Shown here: positions 2,707 to 11,478 of the stretch, in pieces
Numbering within the stretch: position 1 is the first letter of the stretch
How the letters are laid out: each line of letters starts with the position of its first letter
Source: Escherichia coli O127:H6 str. E2348/69
Lineage (GTDB): Bacteria; Pseudomonadota; Gammaproteobacteria; Enterobacterales; Enterobacteriaceae
Reading direction: 5' to 3' (one strand)
Assembly (NCBI RefSeq): GCF_000026545.1
Contig: NC_011601.1
Length of the DNA: 64,000 nt
Notes under the pieces: model-generated
Told to the model about the DNA's origin: nothing
The model's database searches: none
The model's input: the letters and a program-made list of their open reading frames with translations, nothing else
Position numbers and translations under genes: made by a program

Positions 2707-3930
2707 TTAGCGGTGTTGACTTGCCCGACTGAGAATCGCATACGCGATACATGCCACCAGAATCGAGTCTACCGAAGGGATCGTCGTCAGGGTGAATAAG
2801 CCTTTTACGGTCATAAAGCCAACCGCTGCGCCTATGATCCATGCTGCGAATGTCAGCACTTTAATCTGTGACTCCTGGGCTAACACTGACTCTTGATAGC
2901 CATTACGGCGATAAAGGAAAAAGTCAGCGATATAAATTCCGGCAACGGGTGGCGTGGCGATACCCAGGAACAGCAGAAACGGAATAAACCACGCCATAAT
3001 ATCCATACTGCCTACGATGGCGGAAAGGATACCCAGCGCCACGGTAATCTGCCATTTGGGAAAGCGGGTAAGCAGTGTGGAAACCACCAGCGTGCCCTGG
3101 AACATATTGCCCGCGTTACCGGTGACGCAGGCGAAAATCAACAACAGCGCCGCAGGCAGAACCGCACCGAATACCGCCATCGCACCCAGTAAAGATCCCT
3201 GACCACTAATGGCGCTCGGCGTTGCACCCGCCCAGTAGAGCAGAGGGTAGGCAACCAGAAACGTCACGCCTGCGGCAATCAGCGCATGTTTGCGGTTATG
3301 CACAAAACTACCGAAATCAGGCAGTGTGGCAACCAGCACAATAATGGTGCCAACAACGGTGGAAACGGCGACACCTGTATTCATCTCCACAATCGCCGCT
3401 GGTACTGCCACTTCGGTATGGGTTGCCACATAGAGGATGTAACACAGCACCAGCGCGATAACCGGCACGGCAACCTGGGCAATTTTTCCCAGAACGGTAA
3501 AGCCAAATGCCGTAGAGGCGACAAAAATGACACAGCCAGCCGCCACTAACAGTGCCAGTGGAACTTCCAGTCCATGTTGAGCCAGTAAGTCATGTACCGA
3601 ATGACCAAACATATTGGCGGTAACGGCAATCCAGCCGAACAGACTTATCGCCATCAAAATGTTAATGGCGATGGCCCCTTTTTCGCCAAACGAATATTTC
3701 ACAATGCCATACGTTGGCAGGCGGGCTTTTTCTCCCACGCTAATGGTGATGGCTGAAAGTAAGGTCAGAATGACGCCGCCTAACAATACGACGCTAATTA
3801 AACTGCTGCTGGAAAGTTGATTGCCGAGGCTTGAGGATGACAACAGTACAGGTGTGACGGCAATACCCAGCAAAATCATGGCAATACGCAATCCTGATGC
3901 CGTATTCAGATTCTCTTCTTTTTTACGCAT
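2707..3930 (-). CDS. Polytopic membrane permease, NCS1-like (cytosine/purine/uracil/allantoin/hydantoin permease family)
   Basis: 407-aa highly hydrophobic ORF of about 12 predicted TM segments, size and architecture like CodB-type permeases; last gene of the minus-strand operon. Confidence 0.55.
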   Translation of the reverse strand: MRKKEENLNTASGLRIAMILLGIAVTPVLLSSSSLGNQLSSSSLISVVLLGGVILTLLSAITISVGEKARLPTYGIVKYSFGEKGAIAINILMAISLFGWIAVTANMFGHSVHDLLAQHGLEVPLALLVAAGCVIFVASTAFGFTVLGKIAQVAVPVIALVLCYILYVATHTEVAVPAAIVEMNTGVAVSTVVGTIIVLVATLPDFGSFVHNRKHALIAAGVTFLVAYPLLYWAGATPSAISGQGSLLGAMAVFGAVLPAALLLIFACVTGNAGNMFQGTLVVSTLLTRFPKWQITVALGILSAIVGSMDIMAWFIPFLLFLGIATPPVAGIYIADFFLYRRNGYQESVLAQESQIKVLTFAAWIIGAAVGFMTVKGLFTLTTIPSVDSILVACIAYAILSRASQHR

Positions 3931-3955
3931 AGTATGTTCCCTTTATAAATGCGCG

Positions 3956-4345
3956 TTACACAGTATGAAAATGCCCGGTGTATTTGCGCCAGCTACCCAG
4001 TTCTGTAATTTCCCGTTGGCCTTCGGTCAGCCAGTTTTCTGCCAGTACGCCCAGCACTTCGCTACCATCGGCAAGTTTGATTTTGCCAATTGCCAGCCCA
4101 GCGGGTTCGCTCATTAACAGAGCGGCAAAACTGGCCAGCGGTAATTGCCAAATTTCTACGTCGACGTGTGTTCCTCCTTCATTCACGCGAATCATTCCCG
4201 GATGGCGATCATTAATACTCCACAACCGGTAATGGGCGTCAGTTCGGTCTTCACGGACAAAAATACCGCCCGCTTTTTGCATATTTGGGTTGAGTTCCAG
4301 GCCGCGCATCAGCGTTCCGTTAACGGCTAAAAGCGTTGTAGTCAT
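3956..4345 (-). CDS. Small GGCT-like (AIG2/gamma-glutamylcyclotransferase-fold) protein
   Basis: 129-aa ORF with N-terminal LLAVNGTLMRG motif resembling the YGTL/YGSL signature of the GGCT fold; GGAGAA Shine-Dalgarno 7 nt upstream; 16 nt after carbamate kinase stop. Confidence 0.45.
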   Translation of the reverse strand: MTTTLLAVNGTLMRGLELNPNMQKAGGIFVREDRTDAHYRLWSINDRHPGMIRVNEGGTHVDVEIWQLPLASFAALLMSEPAGLAIGKIKLADGSEVLGVLAENWLTEGQREITELGSWRKYTGHFHTV

Positions 4346-4361
4346 TGTGTTCTCCAGAGAA

Positions 4362-9849: not shown

Positions 9850-9943
9850 GCTGTTACGCCTGTTTCATTCCGCCCGATAGCAAAATTCGGGCAAAGCATC
9901 CCCGTGTAGCCCCATAAACGGGCTACGGGAGAAAAGGTTGAAA

Positions 9944-10804
9944 TCAATTCATGGTGTTCAGGGTTCGAAAGCCATGCAGCATTCCTGCAAGGCAATCTAC
10001 TCCTGACGTTGCGCCAAATTGCATGACCTGTTCTGCACAGGATGCGATTGTCATTGCCGATGTGCTCCCAACCAGTTGTGCGAGTAACTGGCAAATCGGT
10101 TCTGAAAAATGTCCCTGAAGCGCACGCTCCAGATAATGACGACTGATATCCGTGGTGTTGTGCGCATGTTGATCAATTGCCTGCTGCAACCGGTATTGAT
10201 GATCGGCAAGTGGTGCAGGGAGTTGCCATAACCAGAGCGCTGCCAGATAGCCCAACAAATAGTCATCTCCATCGGGCGTTAAGCCTTTACCAAAGCCGAT
10301 CAGTTGTGGCACCTGGCGTGCCAGCGCATCTGGATGTTCCATAATTGCTAATCCCTGGTGCGTGAGGCTATCCGGCAGGTGCAATGTGCTTTGAACGTTA
10401 TGTTCCAGACAAAATAAAAGCCGTTGCGATGCCATCGTTGGGTAGTGCTGGAAAACCAAAGGGAATGCCTCAAGTGTCAGCATTCTCCCCACAAATGGCG
10501 ACTGCCAGAGCGTTGCGTTATCGAGCGCCACACAAAATCGAGGTGTCCGCAGTAAGCCTGGGGTTAACTGAATGGGATCTGAATGGGCAATCTCTCTTCG
10601 CCAGTCCCAACATTCAGGTAGCCAGACTCTGGCAGCATCAGGGAGATTCAGATACGTTTGCGCACACAACAGAGTGATGAATGTTCCCGCGTCTGAATAC
10701 AGATTTACCGCATGTTTAAAAGCGCTATGCAGACGTAAATCTTGCGTTTCATTCTGCGGGAAAAGATATCCCAACGACGATGCGCAAAGCGTAACCTGTA
10801 CCAT
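9944..10804 (-). CDS. DUF2877 protein (YahE/YlbF-like)
   Basis: 286-aa ORF, same size as K-12 YahE; positioned immediately upstream of the FdrA-like gene as in the yahEFG and fdrA-ylbEF clusters. Confidence 0.55.
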   Translation of the reverse strand: MVQVTLCASSLGYLFPQNETQDLRLHSAFKHAVNLYSDAGTFITLLCAQTYLNLPDAARVWLPECWDWRREIAHSDPIQLTPGLLRTPRFCVALDNATLWQSPFVGRMLTLEAFPLVFQHYPTMASQRLLFCLEHNVQSTLHLPDSLTHQGLAIMEHPDALARQVPQLIGFGKGLTPDGDDYLLGYLAALWLWQLPAPLADHQYRLQQAIDQHAHNTTDISRHYLERALQGHFSEPICQLLAQLVGSTSAMTIASCAEQVMQFGATSGVDCLAGMLHGFRTLNTMN

Positions 10805-10809
10805 CGGCG

Positions 10810-11478
10810 TTAGCCTTCCAGACCTGCAATAATGGCTTTGGAATCAGTAACCCAACCGAAAATGGCACCTTGTGCTTTGATCATCTCGAGGGCGTATTTC
10901 TGGAATTCCGGGAAATAGGAGCCGACACAATCTTCCGGGATAATGCATTCATAGCCACGATCATTTGCTTCGCGCACGGTGGTGGTTACGCAAACTTCGG
11001 TTGTTACACCACAAACTATCAGCGTCTTGATACCGTGGTTTTGCAAAATCAGATGTAAGTCGGTTTGATAAAACGCGCCTTTGCCAGGCTTATCAATCAC
11101 CGGTTCGCCTGCCACCGGGTACAGTTCAGGAATGATGTCATGACCTGCTTCACCTCTGACCAGAATGCGTCCCATCGGTCCTGGTTCACCAATAAAGGTT
11201 TTTCCGCCGCGCGTCAGTTTGGCTGGCGGGCAGTCGCTTAAGTCTGCACGATGGCCTTCACGAATATGAATAACCATAATTCCTTTTTGACGTGCGGCTG
11301 CCAGCACCTCTGTACATGGTGCGATAGCCGTGCGTACCCGTGAAACATCATTGCCCAGTGCCTCACCGAAGCCCCCTGCTTCGACAAAGTCACGCTGCAT
11401 GTCGATCATGACCAGTGCAGTTGTGCGCGGATCAAAAGGTAATTCAAAGGGTTGAGCCTGAAAAATGGATTGCGTCAT
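10810..11478 (-). CDS. Isochorismatase-family cysteine hydrolase (N-carbamoylsarcosine amidase/RutB/BiuH-like)
   Basis: 222-aa ORF; N-terminal ALVMIDMQRDF (catalytic Asp region) and LIVCGVTTEVCV (catalytic Cys motif) typical of the family; AGGAGA Shine-Dalgarno; first gene of the operon. Confidence 0.8.
   Translation of the reverse strand: MTQSIFQAQPFELPFDPRTTALVMIDMQRDFVEAGGFGEALGNDVSRVRTAIAPCTEVLAAARQKGIMVIHIREGHRADLSDCPPAKLTRGGKTFIGEPGPMGRILVRGEAGHDIIPELYPVAGEPVIDKPGKGAFYQTDLHLILQNHGIKTLIVCGVTTEVCVTTTVREANDRGYECIIPEDCVGSYFPEFQKYALEMIKAQGAIFGWVTDSKAIIAGLEG

What the first reader, a model, noticed from the sequence alone, without database searches (positions are those of the whole stretch)
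2707..11478. Uncharacterised seven-gene operon: FdrA-like/DUF1116/DUF2877 module with carbamate kinase, isochorismatase-family hydrolase, GGCT-like protein and NCS1 permease
On the minus strand, seven genes are packed with 5-25 nt gaps or overlapping start/stop codons (ATGA at 8290-8293, ATGGTTAA at 5311-5318): cysteine hydrolase, DUF2877, FdrA-like, DUF1116, carbamate kinase-like, GGCT-like, NCS1-type permease, with a LysR regulator just downstream. The FdrA/DUF1116/DUF2877 triad plus carbamate kinase mirrors the K-12 fdrA-ylbE-ylbF-ybcF genes of the anaerobic allantoin pathway (which, to my recollection, have been reported to encode oxamate carbamoyltransferase) and the functionally unassigned K-12 yahEFG-yahI cluster. 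Here the triad is combined with an amidohydrolase of the family that includes RutB, N-carbamoylsarcosine amidase and biuret hydrolase, and with a permease of the family that carries pyrimidines, hydantoins and allantoin. That combination suggests uptake of a cyclic ureide or N-carbamoyl compound, hydrolytic ring opening or deamidation, phosphorolytic carbamoyl transfer to give carbamoyl phosphate, and ATP formation by carbamate kinase. The substrate is unknown, and I cannot place this exact gene combination in any characterised pathway. The segment is absent from the corresponding position in K-12, where ysgA lies next to metE.
Basis: partly seen in the sequence, partly recalled or inferred. 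Interest (0 to 1): 0.8.

Follow-up and report, generated by a model that had tools for sequence, protein, structure and literature searches.

The report
Triuret-type ureide operon yielding ATP
An accessory operon found in about 29% of complete E. coli genomes (broken here by an insertion sequence) pairs a triuret-hydrolase-type enzyme with a paralogue of the newly described three-subunit oxamate carbamoyltransferase and a carbamate kinase. It probably turns the urate-oxidation product triuret into ammonia and ATP by a route nobody has tested.

Summary
The operon is real and lies in E. coli E2348/69, on the known B2 'tkt1 island' between metE and ysgA. It is not seven intact genes. The DUF1116/AllG gene is split by a 1,550-bp ISEc13, and one spacer is 94 nt.

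The family assignments hold but can be sharpened:
- The cysteine hydrolase is TrtA-type (triuret hydrolase). It carries all six residues that separate TrtA from BiuH, plus the catalytic and substrate-contact residues.
- The 'GGCT-like' protein is a stand-alone allophanate-hydrolase C-domain, identical to PDB 5C5Z.
- The triad is a third E. coli paralogue of AllFGH (26-49% identity to AllFGH and YahEFG).

The same gene set recurs in Enterobacterales, Burkholderiales, Psychrobacter and Avibacterium, in the same order in most of them.

On about 50 enterobacterial plasmids the same AllH-AllF-AllG-carbamate kinase-LysR core (AllG 79% identical) sits next to cyanuric acid hydrolase AtzD instead of TrtA. 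TrtA and AtzD are unrelated enzymes, but both make 1-carboxybiuret, a close analogue of oxalurate.

My best reading is: triuret is hydrolysed to carboxybiuret, a carbamoyl group is transferred to phosphate, and carbamate kinase makes ATP. This is inferred, not tested. I found no experimental assignment. I rate it a new variant of a known kind, interest about 0.6.

The parts
10810..11478 (-). Isochorismatase-like cysteine hydrolase of TrtA (triuret hydrolase) type, 222 aa
   Evidence: The best PDB hit is TrtA 6XIX at 268.7 bits. BiuH 6AZO scores 232 and RutB 105.8. BLASTP identity is 58.7% to TrtA and 51.6% to BiuH. All 14 catalytic, contact and discriminating residues are in the TrtA state. 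The NCBIfam BiuH model scores 273 bits, below its cut-off of 370.
9944..10804 (-). AllH-family (DUF2877) subunit, 286 aa
   Evidence: Pfam PF11392 AllH, E 5.6e-27. It is 26% identical to YahE and 33% to AllH over 110 aa. It is the least conserved subunit across cassettes, at 24-60% identity.
8290..9849 (-). AllF/FdrA-family subunit (succinyl-CoA-synthetase-alpha-like), 519 aa
   Evidence: NCBIfam NF004760 FdrA scores 498 bits, above its cut-off of 433. It is 41.7% identical to YahF and 40.5% to AllF. Orthologues carry the Pfam domains HMA_AllF_N, CoA_binding and Ligase_CoA.
7053..8293 (-). AllG-family (DUF1116) gene, N-terminal fragment (about 413 codons), cut off by the insertion sequence
   Evidence: The alignment to the intact E. 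coli 536 allele breaks at 7053. RefSeq marks it a pseudogene missing its C-terminus. The intact protein matches Pfam PF06545 AllG at E 5e-99.
5503..7052 (+). ISEc13 (IS4/IS50-like) insertion, 1,550 bp; transposase ORF at 5668-7041
   Evidence: NCBIfam transpos_IS4_3 scores 511.6 bits. RefSeq calls it an 'IS4-like element ISEc13 family transposase'. The ends read CTGTCTCTTGATCAGATC... and ...TGTGTATAAGAGACAG, and an 8-bp duplication ACCGCAGC lies at 7053-7060 and 5495-5502. E. coli 536 and most other carriers lack it.
5311..5502 (-). AllG-family gene, C-terminal fragment
   Evidence: It aligns to the 3' end of the E. coli 536 allele. Its stop codon overlaps the carbamate kinase start in ATGGTTAA.
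4362..5318 (-). Carbamate kinase, 318 aa
   Evidence: NCBIfam TIGR00746 arcC scores 366.2 bits, above its cut-off of 358.25, and PRK12352 scores 377.6, above 266. It is 48% identical to YahI and 38% to AllK.
3956..4345 (-). Stand-alone allophanate-hydrolase C-terminal-domain protein (c4763 of CFT073), 129 aa
   Evidence: Pfam PF21986 AH_C at E 1.8e-41; GGACT only at E 0.0012. It is identical to PDB 5C5Z. There is no amidase domain. The position that aligns with His492 of K. lactis allophanate hydrolase is Leu12.
2707..3930 (-). NCS1-family (CodB-like) permease, 407 aa
   Evidence: The NCBIfam cytosine permease model scores 146.9 bits, below its cut-off of 326, so the assignment is family-level only. 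Orthologues carry Pfam Transp_cyt_pur.
1724..2629 (-). LysR-type regulator of the PunR/AllS/YahB group, 301 aa
   Evidence: NCBIfam PunR scores 287 bits (cut-off 345) and AllS 214.7. It is 34% identical to YahB. It travels with the cassette in most taxa and with the AtzD variant, where it is 66% identical.

Best explanation
This is a self-contained, horizontally mobile catabolic cassette for a linear polyuret, most probably triuret (carbonyldiurea, a peroxynitrite oxidation product of urate).

Proposed steps:
1. The NCS1 permease imports the substrate (inferred).
2. The TrtA-type cysteine hydrolase removes one terminal amide, giving NH3 and 1-carboxybiuret. This rests on residue-level similarity to the characterised TrtA.
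3. The AllF/AllG/AllH-like complex uses phosphate to remove the terminal carbamoyl group of carboxybiuret, giving carbamoyl phosphate and allophanate. It may then act again on allophanate. This would parallel the known reaction oxalurate + Pi -> carbamoyl phosphate + oxamate. It is inferred from homology and from the TrtA/AtzD swap described below.
4. Carbamate kinase converts carbamoyl phosphate and ADP to ATP and carbamate, which breaks down to NH3 and CO2. This is a confident family assignment.
5. The AH_C protein probably handles an N-carboxylated intermediate, but its role is the least certain step.
6. The LysR regulator controls the set (inferred).

In E2348/69 the AllG gene is broken by ISEc13, so the pathway is presumably dead in this strain.
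For: 1. TrtA-type hydrolase.
- The closest solved protein is TrtA, ahead of BiuH and far ahead of RutB.
- F35, N41, A134, E160, Y187 and I205 are the positions that Tassoulas et al. identified as differing between the TrtA and BiuH consensus and then mutated. All six are in the TrtA state here.
- The catalytic residues D24/K129/C162 and the contact residues E72/K132/T158/Q202 are also conserved.
- The full 14-residue signature is present in 151 of the 156 sequences aligned, a set that includes the TrtA and BiuH references.

2. A single functional unit.
- The same seven genes, usually with the LysR gene, occur in the same order in Serratia, Rahnella, Citrobacter, Enterobacter, Edwardsiella, Limnobaculum, Caballeronia/Burkholderia and Psychrobacter. 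They are rearranged in Avibacterium.
- The flanking genes are unrelated from taxon to taxon, and in Psychrobacter they include transposases.
- No BiuH, AtzF or allantoin genes were seen in the roughly 10 kb on either side in the loci with Pfam labels.

3. Natural swap.
- On about 50 plasmids (47 at >=99% identity, 36 conjugative) the orthologous core sits next to cyanuric acid amidohydrolase AtzD and an NCS2 permease, in place of TrtA, AH_C and the NCS1 permease. Core identities to the E. coli cassette are AllG 79%, AllF 66%, carbamate kinase 70%, LysR 66% and AllH 37%. AtzD scores 538 bits against a cut-off of 360.
- The AtzD-linked AllG nests inside the TrtA-linked clade. K-12 AllG (48%) and YahG (47%) lie far outside it.
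- TrtA and AtzD are non-homologous, but both produce carboxybiuret (PMC7948467).
- Carboxybiuret (H2N-CO-NH-CO-NH-COO-) differs from oxalurate (H2N-CO-NH-CO-COO-), the proven AllFGH substrate (PMC11326118), by one inserted NH.

4. Wider pattern. More distant AllF/AllG loci sit next to an AtzD-family ring-opener (Clostridia MAG), AtzE-like amidases (Herpetosiphonaceae and Chloroflexi MAGs) or a BiuH-type hydrolase (Nitrososphaeraceae MAG). An independent paper also reports biuH/trtA next to allFGHK and codB in comammox bacteria and ammonia-oxidising archaea (PMC12625717).

5. Carbamate kinase passes the equivalog cut-off.

6. A third paralogue. allFGHK is present in 5,407 of 5,426 complete E. 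coli genomes and the yah cluster in about 5,001. This cassette is present in 1,559, so it is an extra set, not a replacement.
Against: - No activity has been measured for any protein of this cassette.
- The hydrolase is only 58.7% identical to the characterised TrtA, against 51.6% to BiuH. Cassette hydrolases form their own tight group, 78-91% identical to one another, so a related but different substrate is possible.
- Characterised trtA genes sit with biuH and atzF, which are absent here.
- Comparative genomics cannot separate carboxybiuret from biuret as the phosphorolysis substrate. Biuret forms from carboxybiuret spontaneously with a half-life of about 20 min.
- The scheme gives AH_C no necessary job. 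AH_C is also absent from the AtzD variant, and it lacks the His that aligns with H492 of K. lactis allophanate hydrolase.
- The fate of allophanate in urease-negative E. coli, which also lacks allophanate hydrolase, is assumed and not shown.
- The natural availability of triuret in the gut, in urine or in marine habitats is poorly documented.
Confidence: 0.5

Rival explanations
1. The cassette and upstream hydrolase are the same, but the AllFGH-like enzyme phosphorolyses biuret (biuret + Pi -> carbamoyl phosphate + urea). Carboxybiuret would first lose CO2, either spontaneously or with AH_C acting as a carboxybiuret decarboxylase analogous to TrtB.
For: - Carboxybiuret decays to biuret with a half-life of about 20 min.
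- The AH C-domain family is associated with decarboxylation of an N-carboxy compound. That rests on my recollection of Fan et al. 2013. The held paper confirms only that the N and C domains catalyse sequential reactions.
- This reading gives AH_C a job, and it also fits the TrtA/AtzD swap.
Against: - Biuret lacks the terminal carboxylate of the proven substrate oxalurate.
- It would leave urea, a dead end in urease-negative E. coli, so half of the nitrogen would be wasted.
- The AtzD variant works without AH_C.
- AH_C lacks the aligned His.
Confidence: 0.2
2. It is a second oxalurate (or other acyl-urea) carbamoyltransferase system, as the RefSeq names 'AllG/AllH family' suggest. The hydrolase and AH_C would act on a different ureide, such as an oxalurate amide, formylurea or another urate or pyrimidine oxidation product, that feeds an oxalurate-like intermediate.
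For: - The family-level match to AllF/AllG/AllH is strong.
- The LysR regulator is related to AllS, PunR and YahB.
- TrtA has trace activity on formylurea.
- The cassette hydrolases form a separate subgroup from the characterised TrtA.
Against: - allFGHK is already in 5,407 of 5,426 complete E. coli genomes.
- Identity to AllFGH is only 33-49%.
- There are no allantoin or ureidoglycolate genes nearby.
- Every triuret-contact residue is conserved.
- The AtzD swap points to carboxybiuret, not oxalurate.
Confidence: 0.15
3. It is a pyrimidine nitrogen-scavenging pathway: a CodB-like permease with a RutB-like hydrolase releasing carbamate. This was proposed for GR29 in PMC12928451.
For: - There is a CodB-like NCS1 permease.
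- The hydrolase has a weak RutB match.
Against: - RutB scores 113.9 bits against a cut-off of 378, and 105.8 bits against solved RutB, whereas TrtA scores 268.7.
- No RutA-like ring-opening enzyme is present.
- The permease scores far below the CodB cut-off (146.9 against 326).
- This reading does not explain AllFGH, AH_C or the AtzD-swapped variant.
Confidence: 0.04
4. It is a urea or allophanate utilisation system replacing urease. This was suggested from the c4763 structure (Kim et al. 2015, as cited in PMC7558591).
For: The AH_C fold is identical to PDB 5C5Z and is homologous to the C-domain of allophanate hydrolase.
Against: - There is no urea carboxylase and no amidase-signature N-domain anywhere in the cassette.
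- The His that aligns with H492 is replaced by Leu.
- The permease is an NCS1 type, not a urea transporter.
Confidence: 0.03

Closest known systems
AllFGH oxamate (oxamic) carbamoyltransferase with AllK carbamate kinase, E. coli K-12 anaerobic allantoin pathway (PMC11326118)
   Same: - The same three protein families (AllF/FdrA, AllG/DUF1116, AllH/DUF2877) sit next to a carbamate kinase.
- The logic is the same: an N-acylurea and phosphate give carbamoyl phosphate, which gives ATP.
- A LysR regulator of the AllS group is present.
   Different: - It is a paralogue, not an orthologue: 40%, 49% and 33% identity.
- It is accessory (29% of complete genomes) where allFGHK is core.
- It is linked to a TrtA-type hydrolase, AH_C and an NCS1 permease, not to allDCE.
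- The predicted substrate is carboxybiuret or a relative, not oxalurate.
TrtA-(TrtB)-BiuH-AtzF triuret pathway of Herbaspirillum sp. BH-1 and Rhizobium (PMC7948467)
   Same: The first enzyme has the same fold, catalytic triad, substrate-contact residues and all six TrtA-specific residues. The predicted first product, carboxybiuret, is the same.
   Different: There is no BiuH, no AtzF and no TrtB. Downstream hydrolysis is replaced by a predicted phosphorolytic, ATP-yielding branch. The hydrolase is 59% identical to TrtA and forms its own subgroup.
YahE-YahF-YahG-YahI-YahJ cluster of E. coli K-12 (function unknown)
   Same: It has the same triad and a carbamate kinase, at similar distance (26%, 42%, 46% and 48% identity). 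A LysR regulator (YahB, 34% identical) is nearby.
   Different: The partner enzyme in the yah cluster is a cytosine-deaminase-like metallo-amidohydrolase (YahJ), with an ankyrin protein. It has no isochorismatase-family hydrolase, no AH_C and no NCS1 permease.
Cyanuric acid pathways: AtzD then BiuH/AtzF, or AtzD-AtzEG-AtzH-AtzF (Pseudomonas sp. ADP)
   Same: The sister cassette on enterobacterial plasmids begins with a bona fide AtzD. Both routes pass through carboxybiuret.
   Different: The plasmid variant has no BiuH, AtzE, AtzH or AtzF within the IS26-bounded module. It carries the AllHFG-carbamate kinase-LysR core instead.
Catabolic transcarbamylase plus carbamate kinase pathways (arginine deiminase, agmatine deiminase)
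   Same: Energy is conserved by phosphorolysis of a carbamoyl compound to carbamoyl phosphate, followed by substrate-level phosphorylation.
   Different: The transferase is not of the OTC/ATC fold. It is a three-subunit enzyme built on a succinyl-CoA-synthetase-alpha-like subunit.

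Membership tests
AllFGH oxamate carbamoyltransferase (functional orthologue) | Three subunits of the families AllF (FdrA), AllG (PF06545) and AllH (PF11392), encoded together | tested here: met
   NCBIfam FdrA scores 498 bits, above its cut-off of 433. Pfam AllG matches at 5e-99 and AllH at 5.6e-27. In this window AllG is split by an insertion sequence.
AllFGH oxamate carbamoyltransferase (functional orthologue) | Orthology to the characterised E. coli AllF, AllG and AllH | tested here: not met
   Identities are 40.5%, 48.5% and 32.7%. 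The true allFGHK is separately present in 5,407 of 5,426 genomes. In the neighbour-joining tree K-12 AllG lies outside the cassette clade.
AllFGH oxamate carbamoyltransferase (functional orthologue) | Linkage to allantoin or ureidoglycolate genes (allDCE) | tested here: not met
   No such genes lie in the flanks of the Pfam-labelled cassettes, and they were not noted in the other loci.
AllFGH oxamate carbamoyltransferase (functional orthologue) | Oxalurate + Pi <-> carbamoyl phosphate + oxamate activity | not testable with these tools
   This needs an enzyme assay.
TrtA triuret hydrolase | Isochorismatase-like fold with the Asp-Lys-Cys triad (D24, K129, C162) | tested here: met
TrtA triuret hydrolase | Triuret-contact residues E72, K132, T158, E160 and Q202 | tested here: met
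   All are identical in the alignment to 6XIX. The residue list comes from PMC7948467.
TrtA triuret hydrolase | The six positions that separate the TrtA consensus from the BiuH consensus (F35, N41, A134, E160, Y187, I205) | tested here: met
   Six of six are in the TrtA state. Rhizobium BiuH has Y, Y, S, D, T and V.
TrtA triuret hydrolase | Operon context with biuH and atzF | tested here: not met
   Both are absent from the cassette flanks examined.
TrtA triuret hydrolase | High, specific triuret hydrolase activity | not testable with these tools
   This needs an enzyme assay.
BiuH biuret amidohydrolase | NCBIfam equivalog cut-off and BiuH-state signature residues | tested here: not met
   The score is 273.4 bits against a cut-off of 370. 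The signature residues are TrtA-type.
RutB ureidoacrylate amidohydrolase | NCBIfam equivalog cut-off | tested here: not met
   The score is 113.9 bits against a cut-off of 377.95.
Allophanate hydrolase | Amidase-signature N-terminal domain | tested here: not met
   The protein is only 129 aa and matches model positions 472-595 of 600. No amidase gene is in the cassette.
Allophanate hydrolase | C-terminal domain (PF21986) fold | tested here: met
   Pfam AH_C matches at 1.8e-41. The protein is identical to the solved structure 5C5Z and homologous to 4GYR, 4ISS and 5I8I.
Allophanate hydrolase | The His of the VGAHL motif (H492 of K. lactis AH). Its catalytic role is from my recollection of Fan et al. 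2013 and is not verified in the held papers. | tested here: not met
   It aligns with Leu12. The stand-alone family has an invariant VNGTLMRG motif instead.
Carbamate kinase (ArcC) | NCBIfam equivalog cut-off | tested here: met
   TIGR00746 scores 366.2 bits, at or above its cut-off of 358.25.
CodB cytosine permease | NCBIfam equivalog cut-off | tested here: not met
   The score is 146.9 bits against a cut-off of 326, so only NCS1 family membership is supported.

The most novel reading that the evidence does not exclude
The AllFGH-like complex of this clade is a carboxybiuret (and perhaps allophanate) phosphorylase. If so, triuret in the chromosomal cassette, and cyanuric acid in the plasmid variant, would be mineralised without biuret hydrolase, allophanate hydrolase or urease, and with net ATP gain. 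That would be a new energy-conserving branch of polyuret and s-triazine catabolism. It would be carried by about 29% of complete E. coli genomes (described in the literature as a B2 ExPEC island), by many other Proteobacteria, and by conjugative plasmids in Citrobacter, Klebsiella, Enterobacter and related genera, many from human samples. It would also imply that the large AllF/AllG family (3,518 representative clusters at E <= 0.001) is a general family of 'acyl-urea phosphorylases' whose substrate is set by the neighbouring hydrolase.
Probability: 0.35. Interest if true: 0.75.

Novelty: new variant of a known kind. Interest (0 to 1): 0.6.

Why it matters
If the reading is right, it matters in five ways.
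1. It would assign a function to a conserved accessory operon present in 1,559 of 5,426 complete E. coli genomes. That operon includes c4763, a protein crystallised because it is 'UPEC-specific'.
2. It would give the recently discovered three-subunit carbamoyltransferase class a second substrate, and a simple rule for predicting others from the neighbouring hydrolase.
3. It would link bacterial energy and nitrogen metabolism to triuret, a peroxynitrite oxidation product of urate that has been detected in human urine.
4. It would reveal a cyanuric-acid route on conjugative plasmids in Citrobacter, Klebsiella, Enterobacter and related genera, many from human samples. From my own knowledge, cyanuric acid is a chlorine stabiliser and a breakdown product of isocyanurate disinfectants.
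5. It would suggest re-reading the biuH/trtA-allFGHK clusters of nitrifiers, published as two separate pathways, as one pathway.

All of this can be tested directly with commercially available or easily made substrates.

Tried and rejected
- Rfam scan of 1500-12800: only two sub-threshold hits, a fluoride riboswitch at 20 bits (gathering score 34) and Mu-gpT-DE. I treat both as chance.
- Promoter and terminator scan: fewer promoter-like sites than in the shuffles, and terminator-like sites within about one standard deviation of the shuffle mean. It was uninformative.
- The 411-aa protein upstream of AtzD in the plasmid variant, tested as a possible functional stand-in for AH_C: it has no Pfam or PDB match and, from its highly hydrophobic sequence, looks like an integral membrane protein. 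I rejected it as an AH_C analogue.
- A PHROGs scan of ten neighbour proteins: I chose the wrong library, and it showed only transposases and ABC ATPases.
- Literature searches for expression or phenotype data on the CFT073 loci c4759-c4764, and for Biolog biuret or parabanic acid phenotypes: nothing useful.
- The UPEC transcriptome paper that mentions DUF1116 refers to the K-12-type ylbE, not this operon.
- The c4763 structure paper and Fan et al. 2013 could not be read. The catalytic role of His492 therefore rests on my memory.
- Neighbours in the distant loci L040, L046 and L047 gave no further informative partner enzymes.
- Allophanate as the first substrate of the AllFGH-like enzyme: rejected, because the AtzD variant has no enzyme able to make allophanate from carboxybiuret or biuret.

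Full report
**1. What is in the window**

The window matches E. coli O127:H6 strain E2348/69 at 100% identity. On the minus strand between 11478 and 1724 lie the following genes:
- an isochorismatase-family cysteine hydrolase (10810-11478)
- a DUF2877/AllH protein (9944-10804)
- an FdrA/AllF-like protein (8290-9849)
- a DUF1116/AllG gene starting at 8293
- a carbamate kinase (4362-5318)
- a 129-aa protein (3956-4345)
- an NCS1 permease (2707-3930)
- a LysR regulator (1724-2629)

Two details differ from the finding. First, the AllG gene is split by a 1,550-bp ISEc13 element at 5503-7052. The element has IS50-like ends and an 8-bp target duplication, ACCGCAGC. RefSeq annotates both halves as pseudogene fragments. 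Second, the AllH-AllF spacer is 94 nt, not 5-25 nt. The intact 474-aa AllG is present in E. coli 536, and the other proteins differ from those of 536 by 0-6 residues.

**2. Where it sits and how common it is**

K-12 has metE-ysgA-udp directly adjacent, so the segment is an insertion relative to K-12. It forms part of the roughly 16-kb 'tkt1 island' (GR29). That island is described as strongly associated with phylogroup B2 ExPEC (PMC12928451).

| Gene set | Complete E. coli genomes carrying it (of 5,426) |
|---|---|
| This operon's core | 1,559 (1,503 chromosomal places, 126 plasmid places) |
| allFGHK | 5,407 |
| yahEFG-yahI | about 5,001 |

The operon is therefore a third, accessory copy of the triad. 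Its identities to the K-12 proteins are as follows:

| Cassette protein | K-12 all-cluster protein | K-12 yah-cluster protein |
|---|---|---|
| AllF-like | AllF 40.5% | YahF 41.7% |
| AllG-like | AllG 48.5% | YahG 46.3% |
| AllH-like | AllH 32.7% (110 aa) | YahE 26.4% |
| Carbamate kinase | AllK 38.5% | YahI 48.3% |

**3. Sharpening the family assignments**

*The hydrolase.* By sequence it is closest to the triuret hydrolase TrtA of Herbaspirillum (PDB 6XIX, 268.7 bits). Biuret hydrolases score 228-232 bits and RutB 105.8 bits. Overall identity is only modestly different, 58.7% to TrtA and 51.6% to BiuH, so the argument rests on individual residues.

Tassoulas et al. (PMC7948467) list the following for TrtA:
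- the catalytic triad D24/K129/C162
- the substrate contacts E72, K132, T158/E160 and Q202
- six positions where the TrtA and BiuH consensus differ: F35, N41, A134, E160, Y187 and I205, which in BiuH are Y, Y, S, D, T and V

The E. coli protein is in the TrtA state at all 14 positions. So are 151 of the 156 sequences I aligned, a set that includes the TrtA and BiuH references. The protein falls below the NCBIfam equivalog cut-offs for both BiuH (273 against 370) and RutB (114 against 378).

*The 'GGCT-like' protein.* It matches Pfam AH_C (PF21986) at 1.8e-41, and GGACT only at 0.0012. It aligns with positions 472-595 of the allophanate hydrolase model. It is identical to the solved structure 5C5Z, the 'UPEC-specific protein c4763' cited in PMC7558591.

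It has no amidase domain. Where the three full-length allophanate hydrolases in my alignment (two solved, one from locus L021) have VVGAHL(S/K)G, the stand-alone family has an invariant VNGTLMRG. The His that is H492 in K. lactis numbering is therefore Leu12 here. I recall that His being proposed as catalytic by Fan et al. 2013, but I could not read that paper. Thirteen other positions, including E64, Y39 and T35, are invariant across both groups, so a pocket is probably retained.

*The rest.* The carbamate kinase passes the ArcC equivalog cut-off. The permease and the regulator can be placed only at family level, as NCS1 and as the PunR/AllS/YahB group of LysR regulators.

**4. The cassette is one conserved, mobile unit**

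Close homologues of the hydrolase (78-87% identity in the database search) occur in Enterobacterales, Vibrionaceae, Shewanella, Pasteurellaceae, Psychrobacter, Caballeronia, Dyella, Silvimonas and others.

I inspected the gene context in about 35 loci. The same genes (hydrolase, AllH, AllF, AllG, carbamate kinase, AH_C, NCS1 permease, usually with the LysR gene) appear, and in most of them in the same order. The taxa are Serratia, Rahnella, Citrobacter, Enterobacter, Edwardsiella, Limnobaculum, Burkholderia/Caballeronia and Psychrobacter, where transposases flank the set. In Avibacterium the genes are rearranged. The surrounding genes are unrelated from one taxon to the next. I saw no BiuH, AtzF, urease or allantoin genes in the Pfam-labelled flanks.

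**5. The most informative result: a natural swap**

Two loci from the genome scan carry orthologues of the core but lack the TrtA-type hydrolase, AH_C and the NCS1 permease. They come from a Klebsiella michiganensis plasmid contig and from Huaxiibacter. Core identities to the E. coli cassette are AllG 79%, AllF 66%, carbamate kinase 70%, LysR 66% and AllH 37%.

In the place of the missing genes stand three others:
- a cyanuric acid amidohydrolase, AtzD (NCBIfam equivalog 538 bits, cut-off 360)
- an NCS2 permease
- a 411-aa protein that looks like a membrane protein

This variant is found on 50 plasmids, 47 of them at >=99% identity. The hosts include Citrobacter (18), Klebsiella (11), Enterobacter (8), Leclercia and Raoultella. 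Thirty-six of the plasmids are conjugative. On E. coli plasmid pEsco-36073cz the eight genes form a block bounded by IS26 and a group II intron, with no allophanate hydrolase nearby.

In a neighbour-joining tree the AtzD-linked AllG nests inside the TrtA-linked clade, far from K-12 AllG and YahG.

TrtA and AtzD are unrelated proteins acting on different substrates, linear triuret and cyclic cyanuric acid. Their product is the same, 1-carboxybiuret (PMC7948467). The simplest explanation is that the conserved core handles carboxybiuret or what it turns into.

Carboxybiuret is H2N-CO-NH-CO-NH-COO-. Oxalurate, the proven AllFGH substrate (PMC11326118), is H2N-CO-NH-CO-COO-. The two differ by one inserted NH.

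**6. Proposed mechanism, with the status of each step**

| Step | Reaction | Status |
|---|---|---|
| Uptake | NCS1 permease imports the substrate | inferred |
| Deamidation | triuret -> carboxybiuret + NH3 by the TrtA-type hydrolase | inferred from residue-level conservation |
| Phosphorolysis | carboxybiuret + Pi -> carbamoyl phosphate + allophanate by AllF'G'H' | inferred from homology and the TrtA/AtzD swap |
| Second round | allophanate + Pi -> carbamoyl phosphate + carbamate | speculative, but it would explain how urease-negative E. coli recovers all the nitrogen |
| ATP formation | carbamoyl phosphate + ADP -> ATP + carbamate -> NH3 + CO2 | confident family assignment |
| AH_C | acts on an N-carboxylated intermediate | unresolved |

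AH_C travels with the TrtA module and is absent from the AtzD variant, so the core does not require it.

The main rival is that biuret is the phosphorolysis substrate, giving carbamoyl phosphate and urea. Biuret forms spontaneously from carboxybiuret with a half-life of about 20 min, or could be formed by AH_C acting as a decarboxylase. Comparative genomics cannot separate these two readings.

Allophanate cannot be the first substrate, because the AtzD variant has no way to make it.

Because the TrtA-linked and AtzD-linked regulators are 66% identical, I expect them to sense a shared downstream metabolite and not the imported compound (inference).

**7. Wider pattern**

More distant AllF/AllG loci also sit beside enzymes of polyuret or s-triazine chemistry:
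- an AtzD-family ring-opener (349 bits) with a cytosine-deaminase-like amidohydrolase, in a Clostridia MAG
- AtzE-like amidases, in Herpetosiphonaceae and Chloroflexi MAGs
- a BiuH-type hydrolase, in a Nitrososphaeraceae MAG

Independently, PMC12625717 reported biuH/trtA beside allFGHK and codB in comammox bacteria and ammonia-oxidising archaea. That paper read the genes as two separate pathways, biuret and oxalurate.

The AllG family is large: 3,518 representative clusters at E <= 0.001. It includes proteins of about 1,000 aa in which the AllG-like region occupies the C-terminal half, which look like AllF-AllG fusions.

**8. Other published or annotated readings**

- Pyrimidine scavenging (PMC12928451). 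The weak RutB match and the lack of any ring-opening enzyme argue against it.
- Urea utilisation via allophanate (from the c4763 structure). The absence of a urea carboxylase and of an amidase domain argues against it.
- 'Oxamate carbamoyltransferase', as the RefSeq product names imply. Paralogy, gene context and the AtzD swap make it unlikely, but it is not excluded.

**9. Novelty and limits**

Every protein family here is known, and the island has been described. I found no experimental assignment for the cassette in the held library, and no paper proposing a carboxybiuret-to-carbamoyl-phosphate step. I therefore rate it a new variant of a known kind.

The limits are these:
- Nothing is supported by biochemistry.
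- The hydrolase subgroup is distinct from the characterised TrtA.
- The role of AH_C and the fate of allophanate are open.
- The allele in this window is inactivated by ISEc13.

Noticed in passing
window 5503-7052: ISEc13 (IS4/IS50 group) is inserted in the AllG gene. One end reads CTGTCTCTTGATCAGATC and the other ends ...TGTGTATAAGAGACAG, which as I recall match the Tn5/IS50 inside- and outside-end types. An 8-bp duplication ACCGCAGC flanks it. Among the listed E. coli carriers, only the three E2348/69-lineage records have this insertion.
   Followed up: partly
L052:9054-19133 (E. coli plasmid pEsco-36073cz); L021; L022: A sister cassette (membrane protein, AtzD cyanuric acid hydrolase, NCS2 permease, AllH, AllF, AllG, carbamate kinase, LysR) sits on 50 plasmids, mostly conjugative, in Citrobacter, Klebsiella, Enterobacter, Leclercia, Raoultella and others. 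Many are human isolates, and one record's source is a shower. It may be a cyanuric-acid (isocyanurate disinfectant) catabolic trait spreading on plasmids that also carry resistance determinants.
   Followed up: partly
(for example H51, NZ_CP123047.1, a 207-kb plasmid): The TrtA-type cassette itself also occurs at 126 plasmid places in E. coli, at about 96% identity to the chromosomal copy. This suggests continuing horizontal movement.
   Followed up: no
window 9850-9943 (minus strand): The 94-nt spacer between AllH and AllF contains a hairpin, GTAGCCC-GTTTATG-GGGCTAC. A spacer of about 60-110 nt is found at this junction in the several distant taxa I looked at. There is no Rfam match. It could be an mRNA-processing or stability element, or an internal regulatory site.
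   Followed up: partly
representative proteins P0123, P0126, P0128, P0130, P0133 and others: Many family members are about 1,000 aa long, with the AllG-like region in the C-terminal half. They look like AllF-AllG fusions, which would support a physical AllF-AllG complex.
   Followed up: no
L042:8428-16638; L043; L044: MAGs of Clostridia, Oscillospiraceae and Ruminococcaceae carry two tandem AllG paralogues. In L042 they sit with AllF, an AtzD/barbiturase-family ring-opening amidohydrolase, a cytosine-deaminase-like amidohydrolase and an LctP-family permease. This may be another uncharacterised ureide phosphorolysis pathway in anaerobes.
   Followed up: partly
window 2-1524 (and L001:894-5924): The left part of the same island carries the C-terminal end of transketolase tkt1 and an RpiR-family regulator. 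In E. coli 536 the island also carries hxlB and a ptsG-like PTS gene. This is a separate sugar-phosphate module on the B2 'tkt1 island'.
   Followed up: no
L034:2678-12389 (Cupriavidus MAG): This cassette variant has a shortened AH_C (106 aa) placed upstream of the TrtA-type hydrolase. It sits next to an ammonium transporter (Amt) and a 541-aa protein with no NCBIfam match, in place of the NCS1 permease.
   Followed up: no
window 7762-7837 (+): A sub-threshold Rfam hit to the fluoride riboswitch (20.2 bits against a gathering score of 34) lies inside the AllG coding region on the opposite strand. It is almost certainly chance.
   Followed up: no
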